Assembly (NCBI GenBank): GCA_902531025.1
Contig: CACACV010000001.1
Coordinates: 1-42,101, forward strand
Origin: an uncultured Pelagibacteraceae bacterium
GTDB lineage: Bacteria > Pseudomonadota > Alphaproteobacteria > Pelagibacterales > Pelagibacteraceae
Direction of reading: 5' to 3'
DNA: 42,101 nucleotides
Shown here: one piece after another, positions 14,208 to 42,101 of the stretch
Position numbering within the stretch: position 1 is the stretch's first letter
Layout: each line of letters opens with the position of its first letter
Notes under the pieces: generated by a model
What the model was told of the DNA's origin: nothing
Database searches by the model: none
Seen by the model: the letters and a program-made list of their open reading frames with translations, nothing else
Position numbers and translations under genes: made by a program

Positions 14208-16649
14208 TTACTCCTTATAATTCTTGTTATTTAAAGGTTTTTCTAAAACCTCGACTGGATACTTTTGCTTTTCAACTTCAATAAAAATATTTTTATTTTT
14301 AAGAGTTTCATAAGTATTTCCTGAATTAACATATCCAAATGATAGATTTTTTTCAAAACAAAAAGAATAATTACCTGAAGTAGTTCGTCCAATTATTTTA
14401 TCATCTAAATAAATAGGTTCATCATGAAGAAGCAATGGTTCTCCGGGTTTGCTATCTTTTAAGGTAAACATCATTAATCTTTTATCTAATTTCTCATCTT
14501 TAATTTTCAAAAGAGATTCTTTTCCTATAAAATCTACATTTTTCTTTAAGCTTATCGCGAATTTTAAACCCGCTTGATATTGATTTTCTTCAGGAGAAAT
14601 ATCATGTCCCCAGTGGATAAACCCACTTTCCATTCTCATAATATCCATGGCATGCATACCACAATGACTTAGTTGATATTTTTTTCCTTTTTCTATAATT
14701 AATTTATAAATTTCTTTTGCTTTATTAGTTTCAATGTAAAGTTCAAAACCAAATTCACCAACATAAGATAATCTTTGCGCCCATACTTTATTTTGATTAA
14801 TTGTGACGTATTTGGCAGTTCCAAATTTGAAATTTTCACTTGAATAATCATCATTACTTAAATCTTTCATTAGATCTATACTTTTTGGACCAAATATACC
14901 AAGTACACAATAATCATCTGTAACATCTTTTAAACTAACATTTTCTGATAAATATTTTTCTATGTGAAATTTATCATGCTCTTTGTTGGCTGCTGCAGTT
15001 ATAATTCTAAAAGCATTTTCTCCAATATTAACAACTGTTAAATCTGTTTCTATACCGCCATCTTTATTTAACATTTGAGTATAAGTGCATTTTCCGAATT
15101 CATTTTTAATATTTGCAGTACATATTTTTTGTAGTTCGTCATGAACTGTTTCACCATACAGTTCATATTTAGAAAAAGGTGTTAGTTCAAACAATCCTAC
15201 ATTTTTCCTTGCATTTTTTGTCTCAAATTCTGCTGAAGGATACCAATTTTGATAATTATATGAATATTCATACTCAGCTTTTTTTCCATTTCTTGAAAAC
15301 CACATTGGTCTTTCATAACCACTAGAAACACCAAAACATGCTCCCGCTTGTTTTAACTCTTCATGATAAGGAATTAATTTTTGATTTCTAGAAGTTTTAT
15401 GCTGTTTAAATGGCCAATGCATTCCGTAAAGATCTCCTAATGTTTCAGTAATTCTCTCTTTTAGAAAATTGGTATCTGAATGAAAATTTTGAAATCTTTT
15501 AATATCATAAATAAATAAATCTTCATTAATATGTCCATTCATTAACCATTCAGCTGTAACTTTTCCAATTCCTCCTCCGCTTCCAATTCCAATGCTATTT
15601 AAACCACAGCTAGCAAATAAGTTTTTAATACCTGGTACTTCTCCTAGAAGAGTATTTGTATCTGGCGTAAATGACTCTGGTCCTACAAAAAATTTTCTAA
15701 TTCCAGCTTTTTCTAAAATTGGAACTCTTTTTAATGCTGCTTCTAAATATGGTTCAAAATGTTCAAAATTTTCAGGAAATTCTCCATATGAAAAATCTTC
15801 TGGAACTCTATTAGTTTTATTAAAAGCTGGAATTGATTTTCTTTCAAAAATGCCTATTAGCATTTTTCCTGCATCTTCTTTTAAATACAAACAGTCATCA
15901 AAATCTCTTAAAACAGGTATATTTTTTGGTAAATCACTAATGCCTTCTGTAATCACATAAAAATGCTCTGCAGGATATAATGGGATACTAAAGCCAGCTT
16001 CTTCGCCTATTTGTCTAGACCACATTCCTGTGGCTAAAACAATATATTCACATTCAATAGTTTGGCCATTAACAATTACTCCAGAAACTCTTCCATTTTT
16101 TTTTATAATTTTTTCAACTGGTGATTTTTCAAATATCTTAGCACCTTCTTTTCTAGCTGCTTTTGCTAGTAAATTTGTTACACCAATTGGATCCGCTTGT
16201 CCGTCGCCAGGCATAAAAATTCCACCTAGAATATCTTTATCGCTAATAATTGGATATATTTTTTTAATCTCATCAATATTTAATACTTCAACATTTACAT
16301 CATACAATTGAGCTGTAGTTGCTTGCCTTTTAAGTTCTTGCCATCTTCCTTTTGTAGTTGCAATTGAAAGTGCTCCGTTTAATTTTAATCCACTTGAAAA
16401 ATCTACTTCTTTTTCTAATTTTTTATAAAGTTCTAAAGAATACTTTCTTATTTTTGTTATCCCTGCTGATGGCCCTAGTTGACTAACAAGGCCAGCAGCA
16501 TGCCAAGTAGTACCAGATGTAAGCTGATCTCTTTCAAGTAATATTACATCTTTCCAACCAAATTTTGCAATATGGTATGCACAAGAAGTTCCTATAACTC
16601 CCCCTCCAATTACAACAACTTTCGTACTTTTTGGTAATTCTTTGATCAT
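14208..16649 (-). CDS. GcvT-family FAD-dependent oxidoreductase (sarcosine/dimethylglycine dehydrogenase-like), paralog 1
   Basis: GGGVIG, LTSGTTWHAAG (covalent-FAD His), GPESFTPD, GYERP, C-terminal folate-binding GcvT domain (SYVGEFGFE, MRMESG). Confidence 0.9.
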   Translation of the reverse strand: MIKELPKSTKVVVIGGGVIGTSCAYHIAKFGWKDVILLERDQLTSGTTWHAAGLVSQLGPSAGITKIRKYSLELYKKLEKEVDFSSGLKLNGALSIATTKGRWQELKRQATTAQLYDVNVEVLNIDEIKKIYPIISDKDILGGIFMPGDGQADPIGVTNLLAKAARKEGAKIFEKSPVEKIIKKNGRVSGVIVNGQTIECEYIVLATGMWSRQIGEEAGFSIPLYPAEHFYVITEGISDLPKNIPVLRDFDDCLYLKEDAGKMLIGIFERKSIPAFNKTNRVPEDFSYGEFPENFEHFEPYLEAALKRVPILEKAGIRKFFVGPESFTPDTNTLLGEVPGIKNLFASCGLNSIGIGSGGGIGKVTAEWLMNGHINEDLFIYDIKRFQNFHSDTNFLKERITETLGDLYGMHWPFKQHKTSRNQKLIPYHEELKQAGACFGVSSGYERPMWFSRNGKKAEYEYSYNYQNWYPSAEFETKNARKNVGLFELTPFSKYELYGETVHDELQKICTANIKNEFGKCTYTQMLNKDGGIETDLTVVNIGENAFRIITAAANKEHDKFHIEKYLSENVSLKDVTDDYCVLGIFGPKSIDLMKDLSNDDYSSENFKFGTAKYVTINQNKVWAQRLSYVGEFGFELYIETNKAKEIYKLIIEKGKKYQLSHCGMHAMDIMRMESGFIHWGHDISPEENQYQAGLKFAISLKKNVDFIGKESLLKIKDEKLDKRLMMFTLKDSKPGEPLLLHDEPIYLDDKIIGRTTSGNYSFCFEKNLSFGYVNSGNTYETLKNKNIFIEVEKQKYPVEVLEKPLNNKNYKE

Positions 16650-25944: not shown

Positions 25945-27994
25945 TTAGTTACCTAATGCCTCTGCGGCTTCTTCTGCAGTATAGCTTGTACCATATTGAG
26001 CATTATAAGCTGCTACTGCATCTGCAAAACTTCCATATCCCAGACCTGCTGCAGCTTGCTCTAAATTTGTTCCAATACCAATGGCTGCTGCTTCAGCAAT
26101 GGTATCAGCTACTTGTTGCAAAGAAGTTCCTAATGATCTTGCAATTTGACCTGCTTCAAAAGAACTTACTCTACTCAATAAATCAACACCACCTGCAATA
26201 TCACTCCAAGTATAACTCTGTCCGTAATAACTTGAGTTTTTCCATGACAAAGCTAATTTTTCAGGATTGTAATTTTTGCTGTATTCTTCATTATAAAATT
26301 TTACCCAGTTTGCAAAGTTATCTATTTCTATTCCATAAGATTTTCCTACTAATTTGCTATAATTGTCTAATGATACTGACCAATCCTGATTAAGAAATTC
26401 ATTAATGTTAAATTCATTTTCTGCAATTTCACTGATTGTTTGGTTCATTTCACTTTCTATGTTGTTTGTACTAGCAACAATTTCACTAAAATTATTAATA
26501 GCTAATTGTGCTTTAAGGTCATTTATATTTTCATCTGACATTTTTACCAAATTGCCTTGTCTATCTTGTAGCTCATCTGGCAATTTTCCTTTCCAAGAAT
26601 TAGCCCAATCATTTTTTGTCCAAACTTTCATATTTTCTACATTACTAAAAGACATTTCTACAACATTTGTATCTAAATCATTTTCTTCAAATTCAGCTAT
26701 GTATTGATTTACTGGAAAATTGTTATTACTTAAGTTCAAAATTGATTTATGTAAGTTTTTATTATCAATAATCTTTTTATTATTTGAGCTCATTGAAGTT
26801 AACATTAATGATTCTTGCTGTTGATTTGATAATTTTTCTGCATCAACTTTAGATAGATCTAAAATATATCTTTTTTTTATAAACTTTTTTTCCGCATTTT
26901 TTATTAAAGCACTTGTAAAGTCTGTGCTATCTAAAACTATTAGCAATTTATCACGATCACAATTTTCTCCACATTCCTCTATCATTTGCAGAGATTTTTG
27001 AAACATTGAATTAGCAATTTGATACAGTTTATTTGTTTCAGGTTGTATTTTAGATAATGCATTAAGACTTTTATTAACATCTTTAATATTTTTTTTTAAT
27101 TCTTTTTTGAAGGTTTTCTGATCAATTCTTTTTTCTGCCTTAAGTTCAATATTTTTTACAAAAAGACCATATTTTTTTTTATATATTGTAGTTTCTTTAG
27201 ATAATTTTTTTTCTTTACCTGTTAATTTATTTGTTTTTTTTTCTCCCTGGATAAGAAAATCATGCATATCCATATATCTTTTTAAAGCTTCCTCTGTTTC
27301 ATTATCTAGTGTCAAACCTATAGATTCTCTCATAGATTTTCTCGCTTGGTTTAATGAGTATAAATTTTTTATGGCTTTCCTTGTAGTTTTTTTAATGTTT
27401 GGATAATTTTTTTTAAATTTTTCTATATTTTTTTTTTCATCTTTAAGTGTTTGCATATAAAAAATTTCAAAATACCCCATAGCTTTCATAGTATTCTCTG
27501 GATATTTTGCCATTAAGGCTTTCTTTTTTATGAAAGTATTAGCCATTTCCTCCATAGCTTTTTTTGCTCTTCCATTCTCTGACATTTTAATTTTAAACAT
27601 TCCTTCAGGAACGGATTCGATTTTCTTATATTTTCCTAATTCATCTAATTCATCCAAGCTAAGGAAAGTTTTGCTTAAATCTTCTTTGTAATTTTTTACT
27701 TTTTTAATTTTTTCTTTTTTTTCCTCTATTTTCTTTTTTTTTTCAGTATTCTCTATTTCTTCTACTTTCGTTGTCTCTTTTATTTTCTTTGTTTCTTCTA
27801 TTTTCTTTGTTTCTTCTTCAGGATCAGTTTCTAAAAGAATTTTTTTTGCCTTGCTAAACTCTTCTTCTGTAATTGCACCTTCCTTATAGAGATTATTTAA
27901 TGTTGTTAATTGTTTGGTGATATTTTCTGCAAATAAAGAATTTGAAAAAAATAATATTACTGTAATTAATAAAAAAAAATCTTTTAAATGGCAT
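25945..27994 (-). pseudogene. Large secreted SHOCT-domain protein (~682 aa if repaired), +1 frameshifted in a T9 tract within the signal-peptide region
   Basis: The frame of ORF 25945-27657 stays open up to 27999 without a start codon and encodes FFLLITVILFFSNSLFA-ENITKQLTTLNNLYKEGAITEEEFSKAKKILL (SHOCT). ATG at 27994 is one base out of frame across A9 at 27971-27979; deleting one base gives MPFKRFFLLITVILFFSNSLFA. Confidence 0.75.
27781..27816. repeat. 18-bp tandem duplication (EETKKI x2) in a Lys/Glu-rich linker
   Basis: TATTTTCTTTGTTTCTTC at 27781-27798 and 27799-27816, followed in the protein by degenerate copies. Confidence 0.85.
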
Positions 27995-28970: not shown

Positions 28971-29719
28971 TATATTACTTTTGCCTCATTTTTTAATTTT
29001 TGTACAAGTTCTTCAACATTTGCAACTTTTATCCCTGCTTTTCTTTTAGGAGGTTCTTCTACTTTAATCATTTCAATTCTTGAATTTGTATCAATTCCTA
29101 AATCTGATGCATTGATTTGTTCAATAGGTTTCTTTTTTGCTTTCATAATATTTGGCAAAGATGCATATCTAGGTTCATTTAATCTTAAATCACAAGTAAC
29201 AATTGCAGGAGTATTAACTTCAACTGTTTCTAATCCTTCATCAACTTCTCTTGTTACTTCTAATGAATTTTCTTTAACTTCAATTTTAGAAGCAAATGTT
29301 GCTTGGGGCCAGTTTAAAAGAGCTCCAAGCATTTGACCGGTTTGGTTACAATCATCATCAATGGCTTGTTTACCCATAAAAACTAGGTCAGGCTTTTCTT
29401 TATCTACGATTTTTTGTAATATTTTTGAGACTGCTAAAGGTTCAATTATTCCATCAATCTTAACATGAATTCCTCTATCAGCTCCCACTGCTAGAGCTTT
29501 TCTTACTGTCTCCTGCGCTTTTTCTTCACCTACTGTAACTGCAACAATTTCTTTTGCCTTTCCCGACTCTTTAATTTTTACCGCTTCTTCAATTGCATTG
29601 TCATCAGGTGGATTTGTTGACATTTTAACATTATCTGTAACTACACCTGTTCCATCATCTTTAACTCTGACTTGAACGTTGTAATCTATAACCCTTTTAA
29701 CTGCGACTAATATTTTCAT
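28970..29719 (-). CDS. etfB: Electron transfer flavoprotein beta subunit
   Basis: [45 protein letters not shown]. Confidence 0.97.
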
Positions 29720-32151
29720 TAAGCTCTTAATAATTTATTTTCAGAATCATATGGACTTTCATCCAAAATGGTAGCGTCGTGCATTTTTCCCAAAATATCA
29801 ATTTTTAATTTTTGGCCAGTTGTCGCAAGCGCTGGTTTAACCATACCAAGTGCAATTGATTTTCCTAATCTAAAACCAAAATCTCCACCTGTAGCTCTTC
29901 CTACAACAGTACCATTTTCATAAATTGGATTATTGCCTAAAACGTCTGCATCAGAAGTATTATGCACTTCAAGTGTTACCAATTTATTTTCAAATCCTTT
30001 TTCTCTCCACTTGTTTAATGCTTCTAAGCCAATAAAATTTCCCTTATTTGGATGAATAAATCTATCTAATCCACTTTCATAAGGAGAATATTCTATCGAT
30101 AGTTCTGTTCCTACCAGCTTATAAGATTTTTCTACTCTCAAACTATTCATTGCTCTTATTCCATAAGGTTTAATACTTAAGTCATGTCCGGCTTCCATTA
30201 ATTTATCAAAAATATGATTTTGATATTCAATAGGATGGTGTAATTCCCAACCAAGCTCTCCCACAAAATTTACTCTCATTGCATTTACTGGAGCATAACC
30301 AACATCTATCATTTTTGAACTTAGCCATTTAAAATTATCATTAGAAAAGTCATCTTTTGATACTCTTTGCATTAACTCTCTAGCTTTAGGTCCTGAAACA
30401 ACTAAAACTCCATTACTATTAGTTAAATTTTCAAATTGTACTGAGCCATCATCAGGTATCCATTTTAATATCCAGTCATGATCTAATCTTTGAAAAGCGC
30501 CTGCAGAAACTAGATAAAAACTATTTTCTGACTCTCTCATAATAGTAAATTCAGAATGAACTCCTCCTTTTGTATTAAGAGCATGACATAGATTAATTCT
30601 ACCAACTTTTTTTGGTAATTTGTTAGCAACTAACATATCTAAAAACTCCTCTGCACCTGGTCCTTTAATTCTACATTTTGCAAAAGCTGACATATCAAGA
30701 AGACCAACATTTTCTTTTACATTCTTGCATTCTTTTTCTACTGCTTTGAACCAATTTGATCTTCTAAAAGACCAATCATCTTCCTGTTTCATTCCATCAG
30801 TTGCAAAAAAGTTTGGTCGTTCCCATCCAAATTTTTGACCAAATACTGCTCCAAGATTTTTCATTCTCTCATAGCAAGGCGCTGTTCTTAAAGGTCTAGC
30901 AGCTGGTCTTTCTTCATCTGGAAAATGAGTGATAAAAACATGACTGTAAGCTTCTTCATTTTTTTCTTTTAGATAAGATTTAGAACAGTAATCACCATAT
31001 CTTCTTGGTTCTACACCTAGCATATCGATAGTAGGTTCTCCGTCTATTATCCATTCAGCTAATTGCCATCCAGCTCCACCTGCTGCAGTTATTCCAAAAC
31101 TGTGTCCTTCGTTAATCCAAAAATTTTTTAGTCCCCATGCTGGTCCAACTATTGGGTTTCCATCTGGTGTGTAACAGATTGCACCATTATAAACTTTTTT
31201 AACCCCTACTTCTCCAAACGCTGGAACTCTATGTATTGCCCCTTCGATGTGTGGAGCTAATCTATCTAAATCTTCTTGAAATAATTCATATTCTGAATCT
31301 TTTGACGGTCCATTAACATAACATGCGGGTGCGCCGTCTTCATAAGGTCCTAAAATTAATCCACCAGCTTCTTCTCTCATATACCATCTACTATCACTGT
31401 CTCTCAACACTCCCATCTCTGGAAGTCCTTCTTTTTTTCTTTTTTGAATTTCAGGATGTGGTTCTGTTACAATATATTGGTGTTCTACTGGAATAACTGG
31501 AATATCTAATCCAACCATTTTTCCAGTTTGTCTTGCAAAATTCCCTGAACAAGAAATTATATGTTCGCATTCAATTGTTCCTTTGTCAGTTTCAACAACC
31601 CATCCATCTTTTGTCTGCTTCATGCCAACTACAGTAGTATTTCTATAAATTTCTGCGCCTCTATTTCTTGCTCCTGTTGCAAGTGCTTGTGTTAGATCAG
31701 CTGGTTGAATGTAACCATCCTCAGGATGTTGAATGGCACCAACAAGATCTGAAGTGTTACACAATGGCCAAATTTCTTTTACTTGATCTGGTGTTAAAAA
31801 ATTTACATTGACACCAATTGTTTGTGCTACACCAGCATACTGATGATATTCATCCATTCTGTCTTTATTGTTTGCTAATCTTATATTTGAGACAACACTA
31901 AAACCCACATTCTTGCCTGTTTCTTCTTCTAATTTTTTATATAAATCAACAGCATACTTATGTAACTGTCCTACTGAATAACTCATATTGAATAATGGAA
32001 GTAATCCTGCTGCATGCCAAGTAGACCCTGAAGTTAATTCTTTTCTTTCAATAAGAACTACATCTGACCAACCTTTTTTTGCTAAATGATAAAGAGCACT
32101 TACACCAACTACTCCACCACCAACTACTACAACTTTTGCTTTTGACTTCAT
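29719..32151 (-). CDS. GcvT-family FAD-dependent dimethylglycine dehydrogenase-like protein, paralog 2 (coupled to ETF)
   Basis: [44 protein letters not shown]; stop overlaps the etfB start. Confidence 0.9.
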
Positions 32152-34488: not shown

Positions 34489-34863
34489 TTATTTTAACTT
34501 ACCTTCATCTCTCATTTTTGCTCTTATTTTTGTAGCAGAAATTTTTTGTATTTCTTCAGGTAAAACAATTTCTTCTATTTTATAACCTACTCCTCTCCCG
34601 TAACAGATATTTGTAATATTAGGTACCATCATAATTTTAAATCTTCCCTCGAATTCAGGATTTAATTTATCTTCTATGTTCTTTTTAACAGTTTCAAAAT
34701 CAAATGGATTATCATCTACTCCTTTAACGTCTCTAATTTGAATACAAACCTGGCCAGTTTTTTTTATAATTTCTTTAAATAATGTGTAATGACCTTCATG
34801 GAATGGTTGCCATCTACCCAACATTTGTGCTGTTGGTTTTTTATTATCCCATTGATATGTCAC
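34489..34863 (-). CDS. Small HxGH nucleotidyltransferase (cytidylyltransferase-like)
   Basis: MLGRWQPFHEGH, DNPF, ISATKIR (SxT/SxxR motif). Confidence 0.85.
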   Translation of the reverse strand: MTYQWDNKKPTAQMLGRWQPFHEGHYTLFKEIIKKTGQVCIQIRDVKGVDDNPFDFETVKKNIEDKLNPEFEGRFKIMMVPNITNICYGRGVGYKIEEIVLPEEIQKISATKIRAKMRDEGKLK

Positions 34864-35270
34864 TATTTTATCTCCTTTATTATTTTAGATGCCCACAGTT
34901 TAGCATTTTGGGTAGTTACATGAAAATCATATTTTTCTGGTTTTACAAACATTTGGTTTGTATCTTCAAATCTTCCTTCCTTAATTGTATCTACCCAAAT
35001 AATAAAATCTGCAGGAAATAAACTTCTTGCTTCAGGTGTAGGGCAAATAAAATCTACGACTACATAATTTCTGTCATTTTTTAATTTTAAAGCATGTTCT
35101 GCCATTCTTCTTGCTTGTCTTTTTCTTCCTTCTTCGGAAAAATCCCAGTCATTTGCAGCTTTTCTTATTTCATCAGCATTTAATCTTTTTGCTTCAAGCA
35201 TTGGTGCTAATTCATCTGCGAGTGTTGTCTTACCTGCGCCAGGCAAACCCATAACTAAAATTATCTTCAT
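34863..35270 (-). CDS. Short adenylyl-sulfate-kinase-like P-loop kinase
   Basis: MGLPGAGKTTLA Walker A, NADEIR, DFSEEGR, VVDFICP, FVKP. Confidence 0.82.
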   Translation of the reverse strand: MKIILVMGLPGAGKTTLADELAPMLEAKRLNADEIRKAANDWDFSEEGRKRQARRMAEHALKLKNDRNYVVVDFICPTPEARSLFPADFIIWVDTIKEGRFEDTNQMFVKPEKYDFHVTTQNAKLWASKIIKEIK

Positions 35271-36505
35271 TAAATATCTTCTAAAGGATGATGAGACATA
35301 AGTTCAAGATTATTTTGTCCCACTAAATATTGTTGTTCTAATTTAACACCTTCCTTCCCACCAACTTTACCAATGTAACTTTCAAGTGTTATTGTCATAT
35401 TTTTTTCGAAACACCCTCCTTGTTCTCCACCATCGGTTGGATACTTAATTTGAGGCCATTCATCACAAAGACCAATTCCATGAACCATACATGAATAGCG
35501 ATTACCATAATAATCTTGAGGCAAAACCCAAGACTTTGAAACAAACTCTTTAAAAGACATTCCAGGTTTTATTAAGCGCGAATTATGATCAATTTGATCA
35601 GTGGCCATTGAATATAGTTTTTTTTGCTCTTCATTAAATTTATGACCAACTACATAAGCTCTAGAAATATCTGCACAATACCCATATGGTCCAACCATAT
35701 CGGTATCGAAAGCAACCATCTCGCCGGTTTGCATTACTTTATTGCTGCTCTCTTGCATCCACGGATTAGTTCTTTCGCCTGAAGAAAGTATTCTACATTC
35801 AATCCATTCTCCTCCATGTTCAATATTTGTTTTATGAAGTATTGACCAAAGTTCATCCTCCGTCATACCTGCTCTGAGCTCTTCTCGCATTTTTGCAACA
35901 CCTATATCAGCAACTTCTAATGCAGCTTTCATACATATGAGTTCTTCGGGAGATTTAATAACTCTTGCTTGTTCTAAAATTAATTTGGCATCAACTACTT
36001 CAATCCCAGCTTTATGTAAAGCAGTTACTGCTGGCCCATTAATTACATCAATAGCTATTTTTTTATTTTTGAAATAATTTTTTGATAGATCTTTTATTTC
36101 ATTAATCCATTTTTTTAATTGAGAACTTGCTTGATCTCCATTGCTAAAATAATCCCATGTAATTGAAGGTCTAATTTCATCTATTAAATCCAAATCCTTA
36201 GATAAAATTTCGCAATTAAAATACTCATATAAAATTGTTGGACCATCAACAGGAACAAAACAATATCTCGTTAAATTATGCATATTATAAACACTCATAT
36301 TTACTGTGTCTAAAGCATATCTAATGTTTACTGGATCAAATAATATACAAGCTTCAAGATTATTTTTTTCTAATTCTTTTTTTACTCTATCAAGTCTATA
36401 AGATCTTAATTTATTAAAGTCTATTTCATCTTCTCTGATTCTTTTTTTTGTAATAAATTTTTTATTTAGTTTTGTGTCTGGAAATATTTTTCTATTAAAC
36501 TTCAT
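35270..36505 (-). CDS. dddP: DddP-like DMSP lyase (M24B metallopeptidase fold)
   Basis: FDPVNIRYALD, GGEWIECRILSSGERTNPW, FDTDMVGPYGYCADISR, HGIGLCDEWP, LESYIG, VKLEQ; DddP-type metal ligands and the catalytic Asp are present. Confidence 0.78.
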   Translation of the reverse strand: MKFNRKIFPDTKLNKKFITKKRIREDEIDFNKLRSYRLDRVKKELEKNNLEACILFDPVNIRYALDTVNMSVYNMHNLTRYCFVPVDGPTILYEYFNCEILSKDLDLIDEIRPSITWDYFSNGDQASSQLKKWINEIKDLSKNYFKNKKIAIDVINGPAVTALHKAGIEVVDAKLILEQARVIKSPEELICMKAALEVADIGVAKMREELRAGMTEDELWSILHKTNIEHGGEWIECRILSSGERTNPWMQESSNKVMQTGEMVAFDTDMVGPYGYCADISRAYVVGHKFNEEQKKLYSMATDQIDHNSRLIKPGMSFKEFVSKSWVLPQDYYGNRYSCMVHGIGLCDEWPQIKYPTDGGEQGGCFEKNMTITLESYIGKVGGKEGVKLEQQYLVGQNNLELMSHHPLEDI

Positions 36506-36509
36506 TTAA

Positions 36510-36950
36510 TTAAAGCATCTGAATACCAACACCAGTTTTTGGATATGTATAAAGGTTGTAATTTGCACATAATTCTTCTCCAGATTTTATATCCTTTATC
36601 GATACCATAAACATATATTTTGCATCAGATTTTTCTTGCAAATTATAATACATATTTTCTCTATCGGTATCCTTTTCATCAAACTTTTTTGCTTTTGCGC
36701 TAGTATCTATTGGATCTCCAAACTTTAATGTAGGCAATACATTCGATACCATTCTCATTACTGTTGGTTCGTTTGAATGATTATAAAAACCTCCCAAAGG
36801 AGTTCTGATATATTTGTTTTCAAATTGCTCATCTCTAATATGAGTTACTCCAATAAATGAATTTGCTTTAATTTCTGTTGTTGCAAACAATCCTAAACCT
36901 TCAATTGGTGAGTTTTTAATTGTTAATCCATCTGGCAAAGGCCTATACAT
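36510..36950 (-). CDS. Stand-alone SET-domain methyltransferase
   Basis: SPIEGLGLFA (motif I), GGFYNHSNEP (NHS), IKDIKSGEELCANY (GEELxxxY). Confidence 0.88.
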   Translation of the reverse strand: MYRPLPDGLTIKNSPIEGLGLFATTEIKANSFIGVTHIRDEQFENKYIRTPLGGFYNHSNEPTVMRMVSNVLPTLKFGDPIDTSAKAKKFDEKDTDRENMYYNLQEKSDAKYMFMVSIKDIKSGEELCANYNLYTYPKTGVGIQML

Positions 36951-36964
36951 ATTTTCCGCTCTTT

Positions 36965-38140
36965 CTAAACAATATTAGTTGCTACCCATTTATGAAAATG
37001 ATGTGTTGGATTATCCATAATCGGTGAAAAATTTCCACCATTATATGAAGGAGAGTTTCTGCCCTCTTGCATTCCCTCAATTATATTCAAATCCTCCTTT
37101 TGTATTGCTTTCCATAACTTATAGTTTTGTTTTCTTAATGATTTAAATTTATTTGAATTTGCGGCTTTTTCGCCCACATAATAAATTTCCATGTGTTCTT
37201 TTGTATATTTATGATCAACAGGCTCAAGCCAATAAGCATAGAAATGGTCTTTGTGAATTCCTAGCATTACGTTTGGGAATAGCGCAACATATTCTGCTAT
37301 ATGCTCTTTGTTTTTTGGCCAGTTAGGAAAACATGGAAATTTTTCTTTTCCTTTCAATTTTGGATTATAAACTTTAGTTCCTTGTCCCGCAAATCTATTT
37401 GGTAAACCTTGAATATGATAATGATCATTAATTTTTGAGTAAGAATTTAATCCAGGATGAACCCAAGGCAAATGATAACTTTCACAATAATTTTCTATTG
37501 CAAATTTCCAATTACATTTTACGTTTAGATTAAAGTATCCATAATCATTTGAATAAACCATTAGATCTCTATCTTTAGTGGGCCAAAATTCCTCCCATCT
37601 ATCGCTCAATGGTTTAATATATTCTTCAAATTTTATTTCATTTTCACCAATATTTACAAAAATCATATCGAGCCAAACATAAGATCTAATTTCTTTTAAA
37701 CCACTTTTTGATTTATCAAATTTTTTTGAACTATGTTTATTCATTCCTCCAAGATGTGGGGTAGCTACTAAATTTCCTAAAGTATCATATGACCAAGAAT
37801 GGTATGGACATCTAATAACATTTTTTATTTTACAGCTTTCTTGTAAGATTTTATAACCTCGATGACTGCAAACATTATGAAAAACTCTAATCTTATTTTG
37901 CTTATCTCTCAAAATCATTATCGGGATACCCAATAAATCAAATGGTTTTGCATCTCCTTTATTAGGTAAAGAACTTGCTATTCCAATTACAACCCATTTA
38001 TGTTCAAATAGTTTTTTTCTTTCTAGTTTTGTGTACTCTTGACTTGTATAGCATTCATTGGGGAGACCATGAGATTTATCAATTGGTTTTTTTACAATGT
38101 CTAATTTTTTCTTTTCTATAATATTATATATCTCAGACAT
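36965..38140 (-). CDS. Rieske non-heme iron oxygenase alpha subunit (choline monooxygenase/CntA/GbcA-like group)
   Basis: NVCSHRG..CPYHSW Rieske motif; NWK..ENYCESYH...VH mononuclear Fe motif with bridging Glu; EDLNIIEGMQEG. Confidence 0.9.
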   Translation of the reverse strand: MSEIYNIIEKKKLDIVKKPIDKSHGLPNECYTSQEYTKLERKKLFEHKWVVIGIASSLPNKGDAKPFDLLGIPIMILRDKQNKIRVFHNVCSHRGYKILQESCKIKNVIRCPYHSWSYDTLGNLVATPHLGGMNKHSSKKFDKSKSGLKEIRSYVWLDMIFVNIGENEIKFEEYIKPLSDRWEEFWPTKDRDLMVYSNDYGYFNLNVKCNWKFAIENYCESYHLPWVHPGLNSYSKINDHYHIQGLPNRFAGQGTKVYNPKLKGKEKFPCFPNWPKNKEHIAEYVALFPNVMLGIHKDHFYAYWLEPVDHKYTKEHMEIYYVGEKAANSNKFKSLRKQNYKLWKAIQKEDLNIIEGMQEGRNSPSYNGGNFSPIMDNPTHHFHKWVATNIV

Positions 38141-38769
38141 TATTTATTTACTTCATATAACCCAAGCCAAGCATTAACATCTTTGCTCGCAATGTAATTT
38201 GATTTGAAGAATTCCAATTCCTTCCATTTGTTTTCTTTATTTAACTGGTCTATTTTTTTGTCAAATCCATACTCTTCATGAATTCCTTCATTAATTGTAA
38301 AACAAATTAAGCCTTTATTTTTAGTAATTCTAATAAACTCATCTAATGCTGGAGGCTTTACATGTCCAAAGGTAAAGGTTCCAACACACATTAATGCATC
38401 AAATGAATTATCTTTTTCATTAATTTCTTTATTTAAATCAACTTTATCAAGTTTTTGGTATAAGTCTTCTGGAACTAAATCTAATAATTTCTGAGAAAGA
38501 TCTGCTCCATGAAAGTTTGAAAAACCATATTTTTTCAATTCAACACCTACTAAGCCTGTTCCACATCCTGCATCATAGATTTTAATTTCTTTATCTGTTT
38601 GATATTTTACAAAGATCTCTGAGGTTTCTTTTGGTCCAGTATAATTCCAATCAACCATATCTTGATCGTATTTGTTATCTTCGCCCCATTCGTCATAATA
38701 TTTCATGACTTCATCAGTCTTTTTAAGTTTGTATATTGGTACTTTGTTACCTACATCTTTTTGTGCCAT
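38140..38769 (-). CDS. Class I SAM-dependent methyltransferase
   Basis: IYDAGCGTG motif I, GADLS, FDALMCVGTFTFGHV; YYDEW...YD N-terminus. Confidence 0.9.
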   Translation of the reverse strand: MAQKDVGNKVPIYKLKKTDEVMKYYDEWGEDNKYDQDMVDWNYTGPKETSEIFVKYQTDKEIKIYDAGCGTGLVGVELKKYGFSNFHGADLSQKLLDLVPEDLYQKLDKVDLNKEINEKDNSFDALMCVGTFTFGHVKPPALDEFIRITKNKGLICFTINEGIHEEYGFDKKIDQLNKENKWKELEFFKSNYIASKDVNAWLGLYEVNK

Positions 38770-41174
38770 TAGCTCCTCATCTTTTGTCCAGAAGGATCAT
38801 AAAGTGGTTCTTTAATTATTGAACAGTTAAAAAAGTCGCCATTTATTTCAACTTGAATACCTTTTTCAGATTTTAATTCATTTTGATCTACATAAGAAAA
38901 TGCAATACTTTTGTTTACAAAGTGGGCAAAACCTCCTGAAGTTATGTATCCAATACTTTTGTCACCTTTTAATATCGCTTCATTATAAGTCACATCAATA
39001 TCGTTTGTCTCGACTATTAATGGAACTAATTTATTTTTACTTTCATCTTTTTGAGCACAATCTTTTCCAATAAAATCTTTATTCCAATTTATGAAAACAT
39101 CTAAACCAGTTTCTTTTGCAGTGAAATCGGGACGGTAATCTAATGTCCAAGCTCCCCAATTTTTTTCCAATCTCATAGACATTAAAGCCCTTCCACCAAA
39201 AGGTTTTATATTAAATTCTTTTCCTGCTTTTGTTAATTCTTCGTATAATTTTATTTGAAAATGAGGAGCTACATAAATTTCGTATCCAAGCTCTCCAGTA
39301 AAAGATATTCTATTTACTAAAGCAGGTACTCCTGCAACAAACATTTTTCTAGAATCTCTAAATTTAAAACTATCATTAGAGACGTTCTCTCTAACAATTT
39401 TTTGAAGTAAATCTCTTGATTTAGGACCTGCTATACTAAGTCCATGAAATTCATCGGATCTATTTTTATATTGTAAATTAAATTTTTTTAAATGGCTTTC
39501 AAACCATCTTCTATGCATTTCTTGAGCAGCTCCAGATCCAAAAACCATGAATTCATTTTCATCTAAACATGCCACAGTTAAATCACCATAAAGTTTTCCT
39601 CTGTAAGTAAGCATGGGTGTTAAAGAAATTCTTCCAGGCTTCGGTAATTTACCTGCCATTATATGGTCTAAAAATTTTCTTGCATCTGGACCTCTAAATT
39701 CATGTTTTGAAAAGTTAGCTACTTCAGTTACACCAACATTTTCTCTTACATTTATAACTTCTTTTGAAACATAATTGTGAGATCTTGATCTTTTAATAGT
39801 TGGTTCCTCATAAGCATCTTCTTTATTATTAGCAAACCATAAAACATTTTCTAAACCAAAAGAGTCTCCCATCACAGCTCCCTTTTCAACAAATCGATCA
39901 TATAAAGCTGTTGTTTTTTGCTTTCTGCCTTTTGGCAAAGTTTCGTTTGGAAATGTCATTATAAATCGTCTTTCATAATTTTCTGAAGATTTAATCGTCC
40001 CATATTGTGGTGATGCATAATCTCCGAATCTTGCTACGTCCATTGCCCAGACATCAATTGAAGGTTCACCATCTATAATCCATTCTGCAATACATTTACC
40101 AACCCCGCCACCTTGGCAGAAACCCGCCATAACGCCTACTGCTACCCAATAATTTTTCATACCAGGAACAGGACCAATTAAAGGACTTCCATCAGGACCA
40201 AAAGTGAATGGTCCATTTACGATATTTTTTATTCCTGCTTTTTCTAAAGCAGGCATTCTCTCAAATCCTATAGCTAATCTATCTTGGATGTTATCAAGTT
40301 TAGGTTCTAAAAGTTCATGTCCAAAATTCATTGGAGTCCCTTCTACTTTCCAAGGAGTAGACTTTTGCTCATATGTGCCTAGCAACATTCCTTTACCTTC
40401 TTGTCTAAAATAAATATTACCTTCAAAATCTGTTCCAATTGGAATTCTTTTATCTCCCAATGCTTCAATTTCTGGAATAGCTTCTGTAATTAGATAATGA
40501 TGTTCCATAGGCTGAACAGGTAAATTTAATCCAGCCAAATTACCAACTTCTCTAGCCCATAGTCCTCCAGCATTAATAACAATCTCAGCATTAATATTTC
40601 CTTTATCTGTTACAACATTCCATGAACCGTCTTCCTTTTGCTTAGTATCTTTAACGACTGTATGAGTATAATATTTTCCTCCATGGACTTTTGCAGCTTT
40701 TGCAAATGCATAAGTTACTCCTGACGGATCAACTTCCCCATCTATTGGATCCCATAATGCTAGTAAGTATCTAGAAGGATCAATTAAAGGATTTTTCCTT
40801 TTTACTTCTTCAAGAGAAATAAATTCCTGATCTAATCCCATATATCTTGCTTTTGATCTTTCTCTTTTTAGATATTCTGCCCAGACATCATTTGAAGCTA
40901 AATAAAATCCACCACTTGGTTTAAAACCACAAGAATGACCTGACTCTTTCTCAATTTCTTTGTAAAGACCTATTGTATAAGCCATCATTCTAGAAATATT
41001 TGGATCACTAGAGATTACATGAACATTTCCAGCAGCATGCCATGATGATCCAGAAGTTAACTCATTTCTTTCTAATAAAACACAATCTTTCATTCCAAAC
41101 TTTGAAAGATGGTAAAGAATTGAACAACCAACAACTCCTCCACCAATTATTACTACTTTGGCATAATTCTCCAT
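38769..41174 (-). CDS. GcvT-family FAD-dependent oxidoreductase (DMG/sarcosine dehydrogenase-like), paralog 3
   Basis: GGGVVG, LTSGSSWHAAG, NGPFTFGPDG, SFTGELGYE, MRLEKNWG. Confidence 0.9.
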   Translation of the reverse strand: MENYAKVVIIGGGVVGCSILYHLSKFGMKDCVLLERNELTSGSSWHAAGNVHVISSDPNISRMMAYTIGLYKEIEKESGHSCGFKPSGGFYLASNDVWAEYLKRERSKARYMGLDQEFISLEEVKRKNPLIDPSRYLLALWDPIDGEVDPSGVTYAFAKAAKVHGGKYYTHTVVKDTKQKEDGSWNVVTDKGNINAEIVINAGGLWAREVGNLAGLNLPVQPMEHHYLITEAIPEIEALGDKRIPIGTDFEGNIYFRQEGKGMLLGTYEQKSTPWKVEGTPMNFGHELLEPKLDNIQDRLAIGFERMPALEKAGIKNIVNGPFTFGPDGSPLIGPVPGMKNYWVAVGVMAGFCQGGGVGKCIAEWIIDGEPSIDVWAMDVARFGDYASPQYGTIKSSENYERRFIMTFPNETLPKGRKQKTTALYDRFVEKGAVMGDSFGLENVLWFANNKEDAYEEPTIKRSRSHNYVSKEVINVRENVGVTEVANFSKHEFRGPDARKFLDHIMAGKLPKPGRISLTPMLTYRGKLYGDLTVACLDENEFMVFGSGAAQEMHRRWFESHLKKFNLQYKNRSDEFHGLSIAGPKSRDLLQKIVRENVSNDSFKFRDSRKMFVAGVPALVNRISFTGELGYEIYVAPHFQIKLYEELTKAGKEFNIKPFGGRALMSMRLEKNWGAWTLDYRPDFTAKETGLDVFINWNKDFIGKDCAQKDESKNKLVPLIVETNDIDVTYNEAILKGDKSIGYITSGGFAHFVNKSIAFSYVDQNELKSEKGIQVEINGDFFNCSIIKEPLYDPSGQKMRS

Positions 41175-41176
41175 AA

Positions 41177-42101
41177 CTAGTATTTAATTTCTTTATTAAC
41201 TTCTTTTAAAGTTTTGTCTGTTCCATGATGAAAATGTTTACTCATGTCAGGCATATATTTCATAGAAATTGGCTTTTTACCAACAGCCACTGCCATTTCT
41301 CTTACATGATGCGCTTCTGCTCCACAACAAATTCCAATAAAATTAATATTTTGTTCTAAACAATTTTTTGCAAATTCTGCCATTTCAAATCTATTGCAAA
41401 ATAAATTATCTAGGGCTACAGGGAAAGCATTTCCTCCGGGTATACAGTCGCAACCATGATCTGTTTGATTTAAAAAACCTGGTTCTTCCTCTGTGGTTCT
41501 GTATGGAACAGGTAATCCTGCCACATGGCAAGAAACTTTTTTTCTGACTTCTTTTAGTAATTTCATTGTCATTTTTGGACCTCTATAACAATTTAAACCA
41601 ACAACATCAGCTCCAAGGTCTTCAATTATTCTACAAGCATCTTCGGCTGTATGCCCATCTCTTGTTAAATCGCCTCTTGGTATTGCATAATTTGCAACTG
41701 CTATTAAACCTTCATCTTTGATAGCTTTTAGAGCAATTTTCATTTCATCAACCCAATTAATTGTTTCTGCTACGATAAAATCAACCCCAGCTTCTTTTGC
41801 CCATATAACTTGTTCTTCATACATTTTTTGACATTCTTTAAAAGTTGACTTGTCTTTTGGATCAAAAATATTTGTATTAGCTACATCACCACATACCATT
41901 AAATCTAAATCCTTGAATTCAGCCGCAGCATCTTTTGCAATTTTAAGAGCATTTTTCTGCATTGGCTCAAGTAAATCTTCTTTTCCTATAATTCTCAATT
42001 TTTCTCTATGGCCATAATAAGTAAATGCTTGAACCACATCAGATCCAGCTCTAATAAATTCTCTATGTAATTGAGTAACAACATCTGGATTTTCTAAAAC
42101 A
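41177..42101 (-). CDS. bhmt: Betaine-homocysteine S-methyltransferase (5' end outside window)
   Basis: Frame open to the window edge (..LENPDVVTQLHREFIRAGSDVVQAFTYYGH); VGLNC and GICCG Zn-binding Cys. Confidence 0.88.
   Translation of the reverse strand, partial: VLENPDVVTQLHREFIRAGSDVVQAFTYYGHREKLRIIGKEDLLEPMQKNALKIAKDAAAEFKDLDLMVCGDVANTNIFDPKDKSTFKECQKMYEEQVIWAKEAGVDFIVAETINWVDEMKIALKAIKDEGLIAVANYAIPRGDLTRDGHTAEDACRIIEDLGADVVGLNCYRGPKMTMKLLKEVRKKVSCHVAGLPVPYRTTEEEPGFLNQTDHGCDCIPGGNAFPVALDNLFCNRFEMAEFAKNCLEQNINFIGICCGAEAHHVREMAVAVGKKPISMKYMPDMSKHFHHGTDKTLKEVNKEIKY

What the first reader, a model, noticed from the sequence alone, without database searches (positions are those of the whole stretch)
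36510..36950. SET-domain methyltransferase embedded between a Rieske oxygenase and a DddP-like lyase: a small-molecule S-methyltransferase?
Seen: a minimal 146-aa SET protein with all three SET motifs and an insertion between the NHS and GEEL motifs, 14 nt after the Rieske gene and 4 nt before dddP. Known: SET domains are usually protein-lysine methyltransferases, but Burkholderia BurB is a SET protein that S-methylates methionine to S-methylmethionine (SMM) en route to DMSP/gonyol, and homocysteine methyltransferase family members can use SMM. Inference: in this sulfonium context it may make SMM, giving an SMM cycle with BHMT or a DMSP-type synthesis step in a lineage regarded as a consumer. 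Alternatively it may methylate an operon enzyme. From memory, the sequence also resembles the small SET proteins of marine phages, so a viral origin is possible.
Basis: partly seen in the sequence, partly recalled or inferred. Interest (0 to 1): 0.78.

Follow-up and report, generated by a model that had tools for sequence, protein, structure and literature searches.

The report
Phage-type miniature SET enzyme in SAR11
A small optional gene in the ocean bacterium SAR11 encodes a stripped-down SET-fold protein whose closest non-SAR11 relatives are in marine phages; it moves between gene blocks, lacks the signatures of the methionine-methylating enzyme BurB, and likely methylates a protein rather than making a DMSP precursor.

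Summary
The ORF is real: 146 aa, Pfam SET above cut-off, gaps of 14 and 4 nt, under purifying selection. The BurB-like reading is not supported. BLASTP finds no alignment to a BurB homologue, and a BurB profile scores it 7.8 bits against 245-289 for members. It lacks BurB's HTLQ strand and cysteine post-SET, and no BurI-type decarboxylase lies near it. It is accessory: in 53 of 400 family genomes, directly upstream of 31 of 99 DddP-like genes, and also beside taurine genes or between two metY genes. The whole family has lost most of the I-SET segment that docks peptides, so the substrate is open. Best guess: phage-derived protein-lysine methyltransferase (0.45); small-molecule methyltransferase 0.27 in two readings (Met to SMM about 0.1). 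The three common SAR11 sites all concern sulfur or methyl metabolism, which keeps that rival alive. The genome's second, canonical SET protein resembles BurB more than this one does.

The parts
36510..36950 (-). Phage-type minimal SET-domain protein, 146 aa, with SAR11-specific insert and tail
   Evidence: dN/dS 0.012-0.081 in 15 pairs against the window gene
36882..36899 (-). SET motif I, GLGLFA (res 18-23), SAM-binding in other SET proteins
   Evidence: sequence; G18 nearly invariant and G20 invariant in alignment A1
36789..36851 (-). Shortened I-SET region (res 34-54): one strand, a short loop and the family motif RTPLGG; no I-SET helix predicted
   Evidence: GxG-to-His spacing 40 versus 50 in BurB-likes and 65 in the canonical SAR11 SET; DSSP of both models
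36774..36788 (-). SET motif FYNHS (res 55-59), canonical Asn-His
   Evidence: sequence; N57 invariant in A1
36621..36755 (-). SAR11-specific insertion (about res 66-110), partly low confidence in the model
   Evidence: (mean conservation 0.72 in 51 long forms)
36558..36581 (-). SET motif GEELCANY (res 124-131) with the conserved Tyr131
   Evidence: E126 and Y131 invariant in A1
36513..36557 (-). Cysteine-free C-terminal tail (res 132-146) in the post-SET position
   Evidence: mean conservation 0.93 in 51 long SAR11 forms; YPKTG in 51 of 61 SAR11-set rows and 0 of 80 viral rows; pLDDT under 50
36965..38140 (-). Upstream neighbour: Rieske oxygenase alpha subunit, closest solved relative carnitine monooxygenase CntA
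35270..36505 (-). Downstream neighbour: M24-family DddP-like protein, below the curated DddP cut-off
38140..38769 (-). Class I SAM-dependent methyltransferase of the same cluster, often the direct upstream neighbour of the DddP-like gene where SET is missing
   Evidence: directly upstream of DddP-like in 38 of 49 loci of genomes without a SET hit
38769..42101 (-). Dimethylglycine-dehydrogenase-like gene and BHMT-like gene (the latter cut by the window end)
   Evidence: full-length relative in L210 is closest to BHMT (E 2e-46) and far below the MmuM-type cut-off (67 of 215 bits)

Best explanation
The gene is an intact, selected, accessory member of a phage-borne family of minimal SET proteins, likely captured from a phage by a Pelagibacter lineage, and is predicted to use SAM to methylate a lysine on a protein target rather than to carry out a step of the neighbouring betaine/DMSP pathway. 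Shown: SET fold and motifs, kinship with ~100-aa phage SET proteins, purifying selection, patchy presence, several chromosomal sites, lack of BurB signatures. Inferred: direction of transfer (phage to SAR11), catalytic activity, a protein substrate. Because the I-SET docking segment is largely lost, the target would have to be recognised another way, for example through the SAR11 insert and tail or a partner protein; this is untested. Its place between the Rieske and DddP-like genes is most simply one slot in a region that is shuffled by recombination.
For: PHROG 28741 hit E 2.4e-19. Hits in cyanophages P-SSM7 and P-RSM6 and pelagiphage Kolga, 8 records in all. 0 of 400 other genomes of the phylum at E<=1e-15. 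The 80 viral loci show no conserved neighbour: the commonest neighbour cluster is in 11 loci. Canonical N57-H58, E126 and Y131 are kept. The best structural matches are protein-lysine methyltransferases, Z 9.3-10.6. dN/dS 0.012-0.081. SET is in 53 of 400 family genomes; 51 of 95 DddP-like and 137 of 183 Rieske genomes have no hit. At least 7 changes of SET adjacency are forced by well-supported branches of the DddP-like tree. In G354 the gene has an in-frame internal deletion to 55 aa while the cluster is intact.
Against: I-SET and post-SET form the peptide groove in characterised protein methyltransferases (PMC3178901, passages); here I-SET is 25 residues shorter than in the canonical SAR11 SET and there is no cysteine post-SET, so a peptide substrate is not assured. 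The structural top hits are protein methylases partly because they dominate the PDB. All three common SAR11 sites concern sulfur or methyl metabolism. 44 of 53 SET genomes carry the DddP-like gene, including 16 of 23 in which SET is at the taurine locus (kin are not independent). The tree leaves the SAR11 clade in an open fork with viral rows, so the direction of transfer is not shown.
Confidence: 0.45

Rival explanations
1. A small-molecule methyltransferase that is not BurB-related: the minimal family, having lost the peptide-docking segment, methylates a free amine or thioether (an osmolyte or amino-acid derivative other than Met), and in SAR11 the insert and tail close a small pocket.
For: Short I-SET, shortened in the same direction as BurB (40 and 50 against 65). 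Family-wide conserved H37 and R49 on the remaining hairpin. A tail conserved at 0.93 in the post-SET position, where BurB has backbone contacts to the Met carboxylate (PMC12542666). SAR11 sites beside betaine/DddP-like genes, taurine uptake-aminotransferase-alanine dehydrogenase, or two metY genes.
Against: No single neighbour is shared by all sites. Seven 122-123-aa forms and one 137-aa form in the DddP-like cluster lack the tail. Phage members have no conserved metabolic neighbours. The cluster already holds a class I methyltransferase that is present in many loci without SET.
Confidence: 0.17
2. One reading: a Met S-methyltransferase making SMM, convergent with BurB, feeding an SMM cycle with BHMT or a DMSP-type synthesis.
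For: BurB proves that a SET fold can do this (PMC7496086 passages; PMC12542666). A1 and the BurB-like alignment are homologous (hhalign 94.9%). The AU test does not reject SAR11+BurB as a clade (p 0.46). One site lies between two O-acetylhomoserine sulfhydrylase genes (3 of 80 loci).
Against: No BLASTP alignment with a BurB homologue. BurB profile 7.8 bits against 245-289 for members and 63 for the genome's ordinary second SET. HTLQ strand and cysteine post-SET in 11 of 11 BurB-likes and 0 of 61 SAR11-set rows. BurB ranks 26 of 50 among SET structures, Z 7.9 against 10.2 at the top. BurB-likes sit beside PLP decarboxylases, aminotransferases and MetK; five near-complete SET genomes gave only 25-29% identity decarboxylase hits away from the SET gene. 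The neighbouring methyltransferase is BHMT-like, not MmuM-like. In 18 of the best 80 loci SET is followed by the kinase gene, not the DddP-like gene.
Confidence: 0.1
3. It methylates an enzyme of its own cluster (Rieske, DddP-like or the dehydrogenase) as a dedicated modifier.
For: Tight 14-nt and 4-nt spacing; 44 of 53 SET genomes carry the DddP-like gene and 46 of 53 the Rieske gene.
Against: Both neighbours mostly occur without it; SET moves to other loci; phage members have neither neighbour among the 80 loci.
Confidence: 0.1
4. A non-catalytic or weakly catalytic SAM-binding protein (sensor, sink or interaction module).
For: Loss of I-SET and of a structured post-SET; PMC3178901 links very short post-SET segments to lack of observed activity in PRDM constructs.
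Against: N57, E126 and Y131 are invariant and H58 nearly so across 80 diverse sequences.
Confidence: 0.12

Closest known systems
Uncharacterised ~100-aa SET proteins of marine tailed phages (PHROG 28741; e.g. P-SSM7 PSSM7_204, P-RSM6 CPXG_00131, pelagiphage Kolga gp27)
   Same: YxPLP start, RTPLGGF[IY]NH motif, conserved G34/H37/R49, GxG-to-His spacing of 40, no cysteine post-SET
   Different: Chromosomal in Pelagibacter, with a ~40-aa insert and a 15-aa conserved tail that 0 of 80 viral loci carry
vSET (PBCV-1 A612L, PDB 3kma/1n3j), a small viral protein-lysine methyltransferase
   Same: Small stand-alone SET; top structural match, Z 10.6, rmsd 2.5, 90 aligned, 24% identity, tied with MLL SET domains
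   Different: vSET acts on eukaryotic histone H3 (PDB title); this protein is in bacteria and phages, and its family is defined by a different motif
BurB of Burkholderia thailandensis (PDB 9l4t/9l4v) and BurB-like Met S-methyltransferases
   Same: SET fold (Z 7.9, rmsd 3.1, 88 aligned, 19% identity); shortened I-SET region compared with the canonical bacterial SET
   Different: No HTLQ strand (BurB R70, H72, T73), Asn-His instead of Leu-His, no cysteine post-SET with R133/H138, no decarboxylase gene nearby, 7.8 bits against the BurB-like profile
Canonical bacterial SET plus post-SET protein (second SET gene of the same genome, G000:C13:18815-19291)
   Same: SET motifs; same host
   Different: That gene has a full I-SET and a cysteine post-SET and lies at one housekeeping locus in 6 of 6 genomes examined; the window gene is patchy and phage-type

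Membership tests
SET-domain superfamily (PF00856) | Profile score above the Pfam cut-off | tested here: met
   39.2 bits against 22.4
SET-domain superfamily (PF00856) | GxG, NH and ELxxxY motifs on a SET fold | tested here: met
   (Z 10.6)
Phage minimal SET family (PHROG 28741-like) | Profile match and shared short GxG-to-His spacing | tested here: met
   70 bits, E 2.4e-19; spacing 40 in 59 of 61 SAR11-set rows and 61 of 80 viral rows, 37 in 13 more. The RTPLGG motif count in viral rows is circular, as they were fetched with it.
BurB-type Met S-methyltransferases | Family-level sequence similarity | tested here: not met
   no BLASTP alignment; 7.8 bits against 245-289 for the profile's own 11 members; 9l4t is in the PDB sequence set but not among hits at E<=10 nor in the top 60 of the family profile
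BurB-type Met S-methyltransferases | HTLQ-type strand carrying the Met/SAM-contacting R70, H72, T73 | tested here: not met
   11 of 11 BurB-likes, 0 of 61 SAR11-set rows. The paper notes that Met contacts are main-chain, so a different sequence could in principle serve.
BurB-type Met S-methyltransferases | Cysteine post-SET segment with V130, M132, R133, H138 | tested here: not met
   11 of 11 against 0 of 61
BurB-type Met S-methyltransferases | Linked SMM decarboxylase (BurI) gene | tested here: not met
   none in the window or among the recurring neighbours of the SET loci; only 25-29% hits elsewhere in 5 of 5 near-complete genomes, presumed housekeeping decarboxylases, identity not tested
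BurB-type Met S-methyltransferases | Common descent apart from other SET groups | tested here: inconclusive
   best tree separates them, but AU p 0.46
BurB-type Met S-methyltransferases | SAM-dependent conversion of Met to SMM | not testable with these tools
   needs an assay
Protein-lysine SET methyltransferases | Catalytic Tyr and the conserved Asn-His | tested here: met
   Y131, N57, H58
Protein-lysine SET methyltransferases | Full I-SET and post-SET forming the peptide groove | tested here: not met
   spacing 40 against 65; no I-SET helix in either model; feature defined for human enzymes in PMC3178901.
Protein-lysine SET methyltransferases | Methyl transfer to a protein lysine | not testable with these tools
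   needs an assay
DddP DMSP lyase (downstream gene) | NCBIfam NF043017 cut-off | tested here: not met
   346 against 600; a 456-aa protein of a related family scores 788
DddP DMSP lyase (downstream gene) | Metal-site motifs shared with solved DddP | tested here: met
   FDTD, HGxGLCDE and KLE stretches align with 4rzy; their roles are recalled, not from a call

The most novel reading that the evidence does not exclude
A very widespread family of ultra-minimal SET enzymes in marine phages has given up peptide docking and methylates a small sulfur or amine metabolite (possibly Met to SMM, convergently with BurB); Pelagibacter domesticated one and keeps parking it beside its betaine/DMSP, taurine and methionine genes. 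That would reveal an unknown phage auxiliary metabolic activity and a hidden methylation step in the ocean's most abundant bacteria.
Probability: 0.2. Interest if true: 0.85.

Novelty: new variant of a known kind. Interest (0 to 1): 0.4.

Why it matters
SET proteins of free-living bacteria and phages are almost uncharacterised. This family is about as small as a SET domain can be, lacks the usual peptide-docking segment, is common in marine viral contigs and has been kept under strong selection in about a fifth of the sampled Pelagibacter genomes. It is small and easy to express, so the question of what such enzymes methylate is directly testable. The analysis also removes a tempting but weak inference that SAR11 makes SMM or DMSP, and shows that similarity to BurB cannot be judged by the SET label alone.

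Tried and rejected
Single-sequence scan of viral contigs found nothing; the alignment scan did. PDB sequence searches with single proteins gave only weak SET hits. BurB was not among the rows listed by Foldseek or its VIA re-alignment; the representative-wide search listed it mid-pack. The ESM Atlas returned only SET clusters with mostly viral labels resting on few records. Promoter and terminator scan: 20 sites against 30.6 expected, 2 against 1.9, so uninformative. GC 0.304 and GC3 0.197 of the gene match its neighbours, so there is no sign of recent import. RNA-library contigs of relatives cover parts of the gene in 4 of 4 runs laid, but shares were small (at most 0.12), DNA cannot be excluded and no listed contig bridges to a neighbour by 31 bases, so transcription and co-transcription are not shown. 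The careful SET tree did not finish; the quick tree was used. One DddP-like dN/dS pair (L220, 1.57) was dropped as a length mismatch. The Fisher tests overstate, since kin are not independent, and I do not rely on them. Paper searches listed no study of this phage or SAR11 SET family; only listings were read for most. PMC10734472 labels a SET gene in a HIMB59 phosphate island in a figure legend (one passage); I did not test which SET type it is. PMC12421898 has no SET-domain mention in the passages or the one supplement held. Figures, closed papers and bioRxiv supplements were not seen and could hold an annotation.

Full report
Observation. The ORF, its length, the 14-nt and 4-nt gaps and the three SET motifs are as described. 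The host is a Pelagibacteraceae (SAR11) genome, judged from named relatives that carry the protein at up to 97% identity; the assembly is 55% complete. The gene lies in a co-oriented run BHMT-like, DMGDH-like, class I methyltransferase, Rieske, SET, DddP-like, APS-kinase-like, nucleotidyltransferase-like, enoyl-CoA hydratase and on to etfBA. The Rieske protein is closest to carnitine monooxygenase CntA (E 1e-35). The M24 protein is DddP-like but under the curated cut-off (346 of 600). A full-length relative of the methyltransferase is BHMT-like rather than MmuM-like. The context is thus betaine-type as much as sulfonium-type. The gene is maintained: dN/dS 0.012-0.081 in 15 pairs against the window copy, no higher than Rieske (0.036-0.118, 14 pairs) or DddP-like (0.059-0.13, 14 pairs after dropping one mismatch).

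What family it is. A word-index search gave 2884 hits among 2897 candidates. The full representative search gave 870 at E<=0.001, many of them ~100-aa proteins that match in two stretches on either side of the insert. An 80-row alignment shows a distinct family: YxPLP start, GxG, invariant G34, near-invariant H37, RTPLGGF[IY]NH, GEELxxxY. Annotated phages carry it as a hypothetical protein: P-SSM7, P-RSM6, Kolga. In GTDB representatives 235 of 237 stretches were confirmed and the best 80 were all SAR11; I did not see the other 155. An even draw of 400 genomes of the phylum gave no hit outside the window's genome at E<=1e-15. The 80 viral loci share no neighbour (commonest cluster 11 loci). A quick tree groups the 12 chromosomal SAR11 rows (support 91) with the viral rows (90), apart from BurB-likes (97) and the canonical SET (98). 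The SAR11 clade sits in an open fork, so phage-to-host transfer is inferred from distribution, not shown.

Anatomy. The distance from the GxG motif to the His of the NH motif is 40 residues in 59 of 61 SAR11-set rows and 61 of 80 viral rows (37 in 13 more, 3 not measurable), 50 in 9 of 11 BurB-likes (2 not measurable) and 65 in 6 of 6 canonical SAR11 SET proteins. Both models (window protein pLDDT 79; 98-aa phage form pLDDT 92) show one strand and a short loop where other SET domains have the I-SET helix and strand. There is no cysteine post-SET. A review of human enzymes states that I-SET and post-SET form the peptide groove (PMC3178901, passages). So this family has lost most of the usual peptide-docking platform while keeping N57, H58, E126 and Y131. 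The SAR11 form adds the insert and a tail conserved at 0.93. Both are dispensable at the same locus: seven 122-123-aa forms and one 137-aa form lack the tail.

Test of the BurB idea. I read three of four parts of the BurB structure paper (PMC12542666) and passages of the discovery paper (PMC7496086) and the MmtN paper (PMC9135737). A motif scan of metagenomes gave 21 loci; 11 BurB-like proteins were aligned, and one hits PDB BurB 9l4t at E 1e-51. Their neighbours include PLP decarboxylases, class III aminotransferases and MetK in the loci I scanned. The window protein gives no BLASTP alignment to that homologue and scores 7.8 bits on their profile, against 245-289 for members. The HTLQ strand and the cysteine post-SET are in 11 of 11 BurB-likes and 0 of 61 SAR11-set rows. 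In a representative-wide structure search BurB ranks 26 of 50 (Z 7.9, top 10.2), and 28 of 50 for the phage form. Five near-complete SET-bearing genomes have only 25-29% decarboxylase hits, away from the SET gene. The same BurB profile scores an ordinary second SET gene of this genome at 63 bits, so even within one genome the window gene is the less BurB-like. Against my reading: the two families are homologous (hhalign 94.9%), BurB binds Met through main-chain atoms so signatures may not be needed, and the AU test did not reject a SAR11+BurB clade (p 0.46).

Neighbourhood. In one draw of 400 family genomes at least 80% complete, SET was found in 53 (50 of 277 in the genus), the DddP-like gene in 95 and the Rieske gene in 183 (one Rieske-positive genome, G210, is flagged unpublished). 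A profile search of 200 genomes of the order found no copies missed by the single query among the genomes it listed. 51 of 95 DddP-like and 137 of 183 Rieske genomes had no SET hit; incompleteness explains some, but several are single-contig 99% genomes. Of 99 DddP-like loci examined, 31 have SET directly upstream, 1 has an internally deleted copy and 67 have none; well-supported branches force at least 7 changes. The window's closest DddP-like relatives (93-94% identity) have SET elsewhere. In 23 of the 53 genomes SET follows alanine dehydrogenase in a taurine-type ABC transporter / omega-aminotransferase locus. Among the 80 best GTDB loci (overlapping those genomes) the flanks were Rieske/DddP-like 52, Rieske/kinase 18, alanine dehydrogenase 5, two metY-like genes 3, Rieske/other 2; the metY form is nested in the Rieske-linked clade. 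G070 has one copy at a further locus and a 100-aa copy on a phage-like contig. In the window's own genome the taurine locus has no SET. So the gene is accessory and mobile. In favour of a metabolic link: all three common sites concern sulfur or methyl metabolism, and 16 of 23 taurine-locus genomes also hold the DddP-like gene, though kinship may explain this. Earlier AI notes of this scan also call this region a mosaic; they are leads, and my own counts agree.

How it most likely works. SAM binding through the conserved motifs and methyl transfer assisted by Tyr131 follow from established SET chemistry (inferred). For the acceptor I favour a protein lysine (0.35 for a target outside the cluster or unknown, stated as 0.45 for the whole best explanation with a protein substrate), because the family thrives in unrelated phages with no pathway neighbours and has no fixed partner in SAR11. 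A small molecule other than Met (0.17), Met itself (0.10), a cluster enzyme (0.10) and a non-catalytic role (0.12) remain; these figures are rough and overlap slightly. DMSP synthesis by the methylation route is the least likely, for want of a linked decarboxylase. That SAR11 depends on reduced sulfur and would gain little from spending SAM on SMM is recalled knowledge, not from a call.

Novelty and score. SET proteins in free-living bacteria are known to exist (PMC3980110, passages), and databases label these as SET-domain proteins. Nine paper searches listed no study of this minimal phage family or its SAR11 form. It is a new variant of a known kind: an I-SET-reduced SET family of phages, domesticated in part of Pelagibacter. 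The exciting headline is unsupported, but the substrate question is real and cheap to test. Interest 0.4.

Noticed in passing
G000:C13:18815-19291 (+) = L317:4816-5292: Second, canonical SET plus cysteine post-SET gene (158 aa) after dapD/dapE-like genes and a deacetylase-like gene (name from sequence appearance, not from a call) and convergent with a truA-like gene; same locus in 6 of 6 genomes examined; scores 63 bits on the BurB-like profile. A SET gene beside a possible deacetylase hints at a protein-modification pair.
   Followed up: partly
L285-L305 (metagenome contigs): BurB-like proteins in non-Burkholderia-looking loci beside PLP decarboxylase, class III aminotransferase and MetK genes; the BurB route to SMM/DMSP may be wider than the 'only in some Burkholderia' stated in PMC9135737. 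Hosts not determined.
   Followed up: partly
window 38140-38769 (-): Class I SAM-dependent methyltransferase common in this cluster with or without SET; a better candidate than SET for a small-molecule methylation tied to the cluster.
   Followed up: partly
window 34489-35270 (-): Tiny APS-kinase-like and nucleotidyltransferase-like genes that match the two halves of one phage family, PHROG 10255, so a second phage-shared module sits two genes from SET.
   Followed up: no
L105:1277-1432 (G354): SET gene reduced to 55 aa by an in-frame internal deletion while Rieske and DddP-like genes are intact.
   Followed up: yes
L221, L223, L224: SET inserted between two O-acetylhomoserine sulfhydrylase (metY-like) genes and an alpha/beta hydrolase, next to ribosomal-protein-like genes.
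   Followed up: partly
window 14208-16649, 29719-32151, 38769-41174 (-): Three paralogous ~800-aa DMGDH/sarcosine-dehydrogenase-like genes within 27 kb; the 813-aa paralogue is the usual downstream neighbour of SET at the taurine locus in relatives.
   Followed up: no
G218:C1:1305520-1307969: Two tandem DddP-like paralogues (43% and 87% identity to the window protein).
   Followed up: no
window 25945-27657 (-): 570-aa ORF with no Pfam match between etfA and the ETF-ubiquinone oxidoreductase gene.
   Followed up: no
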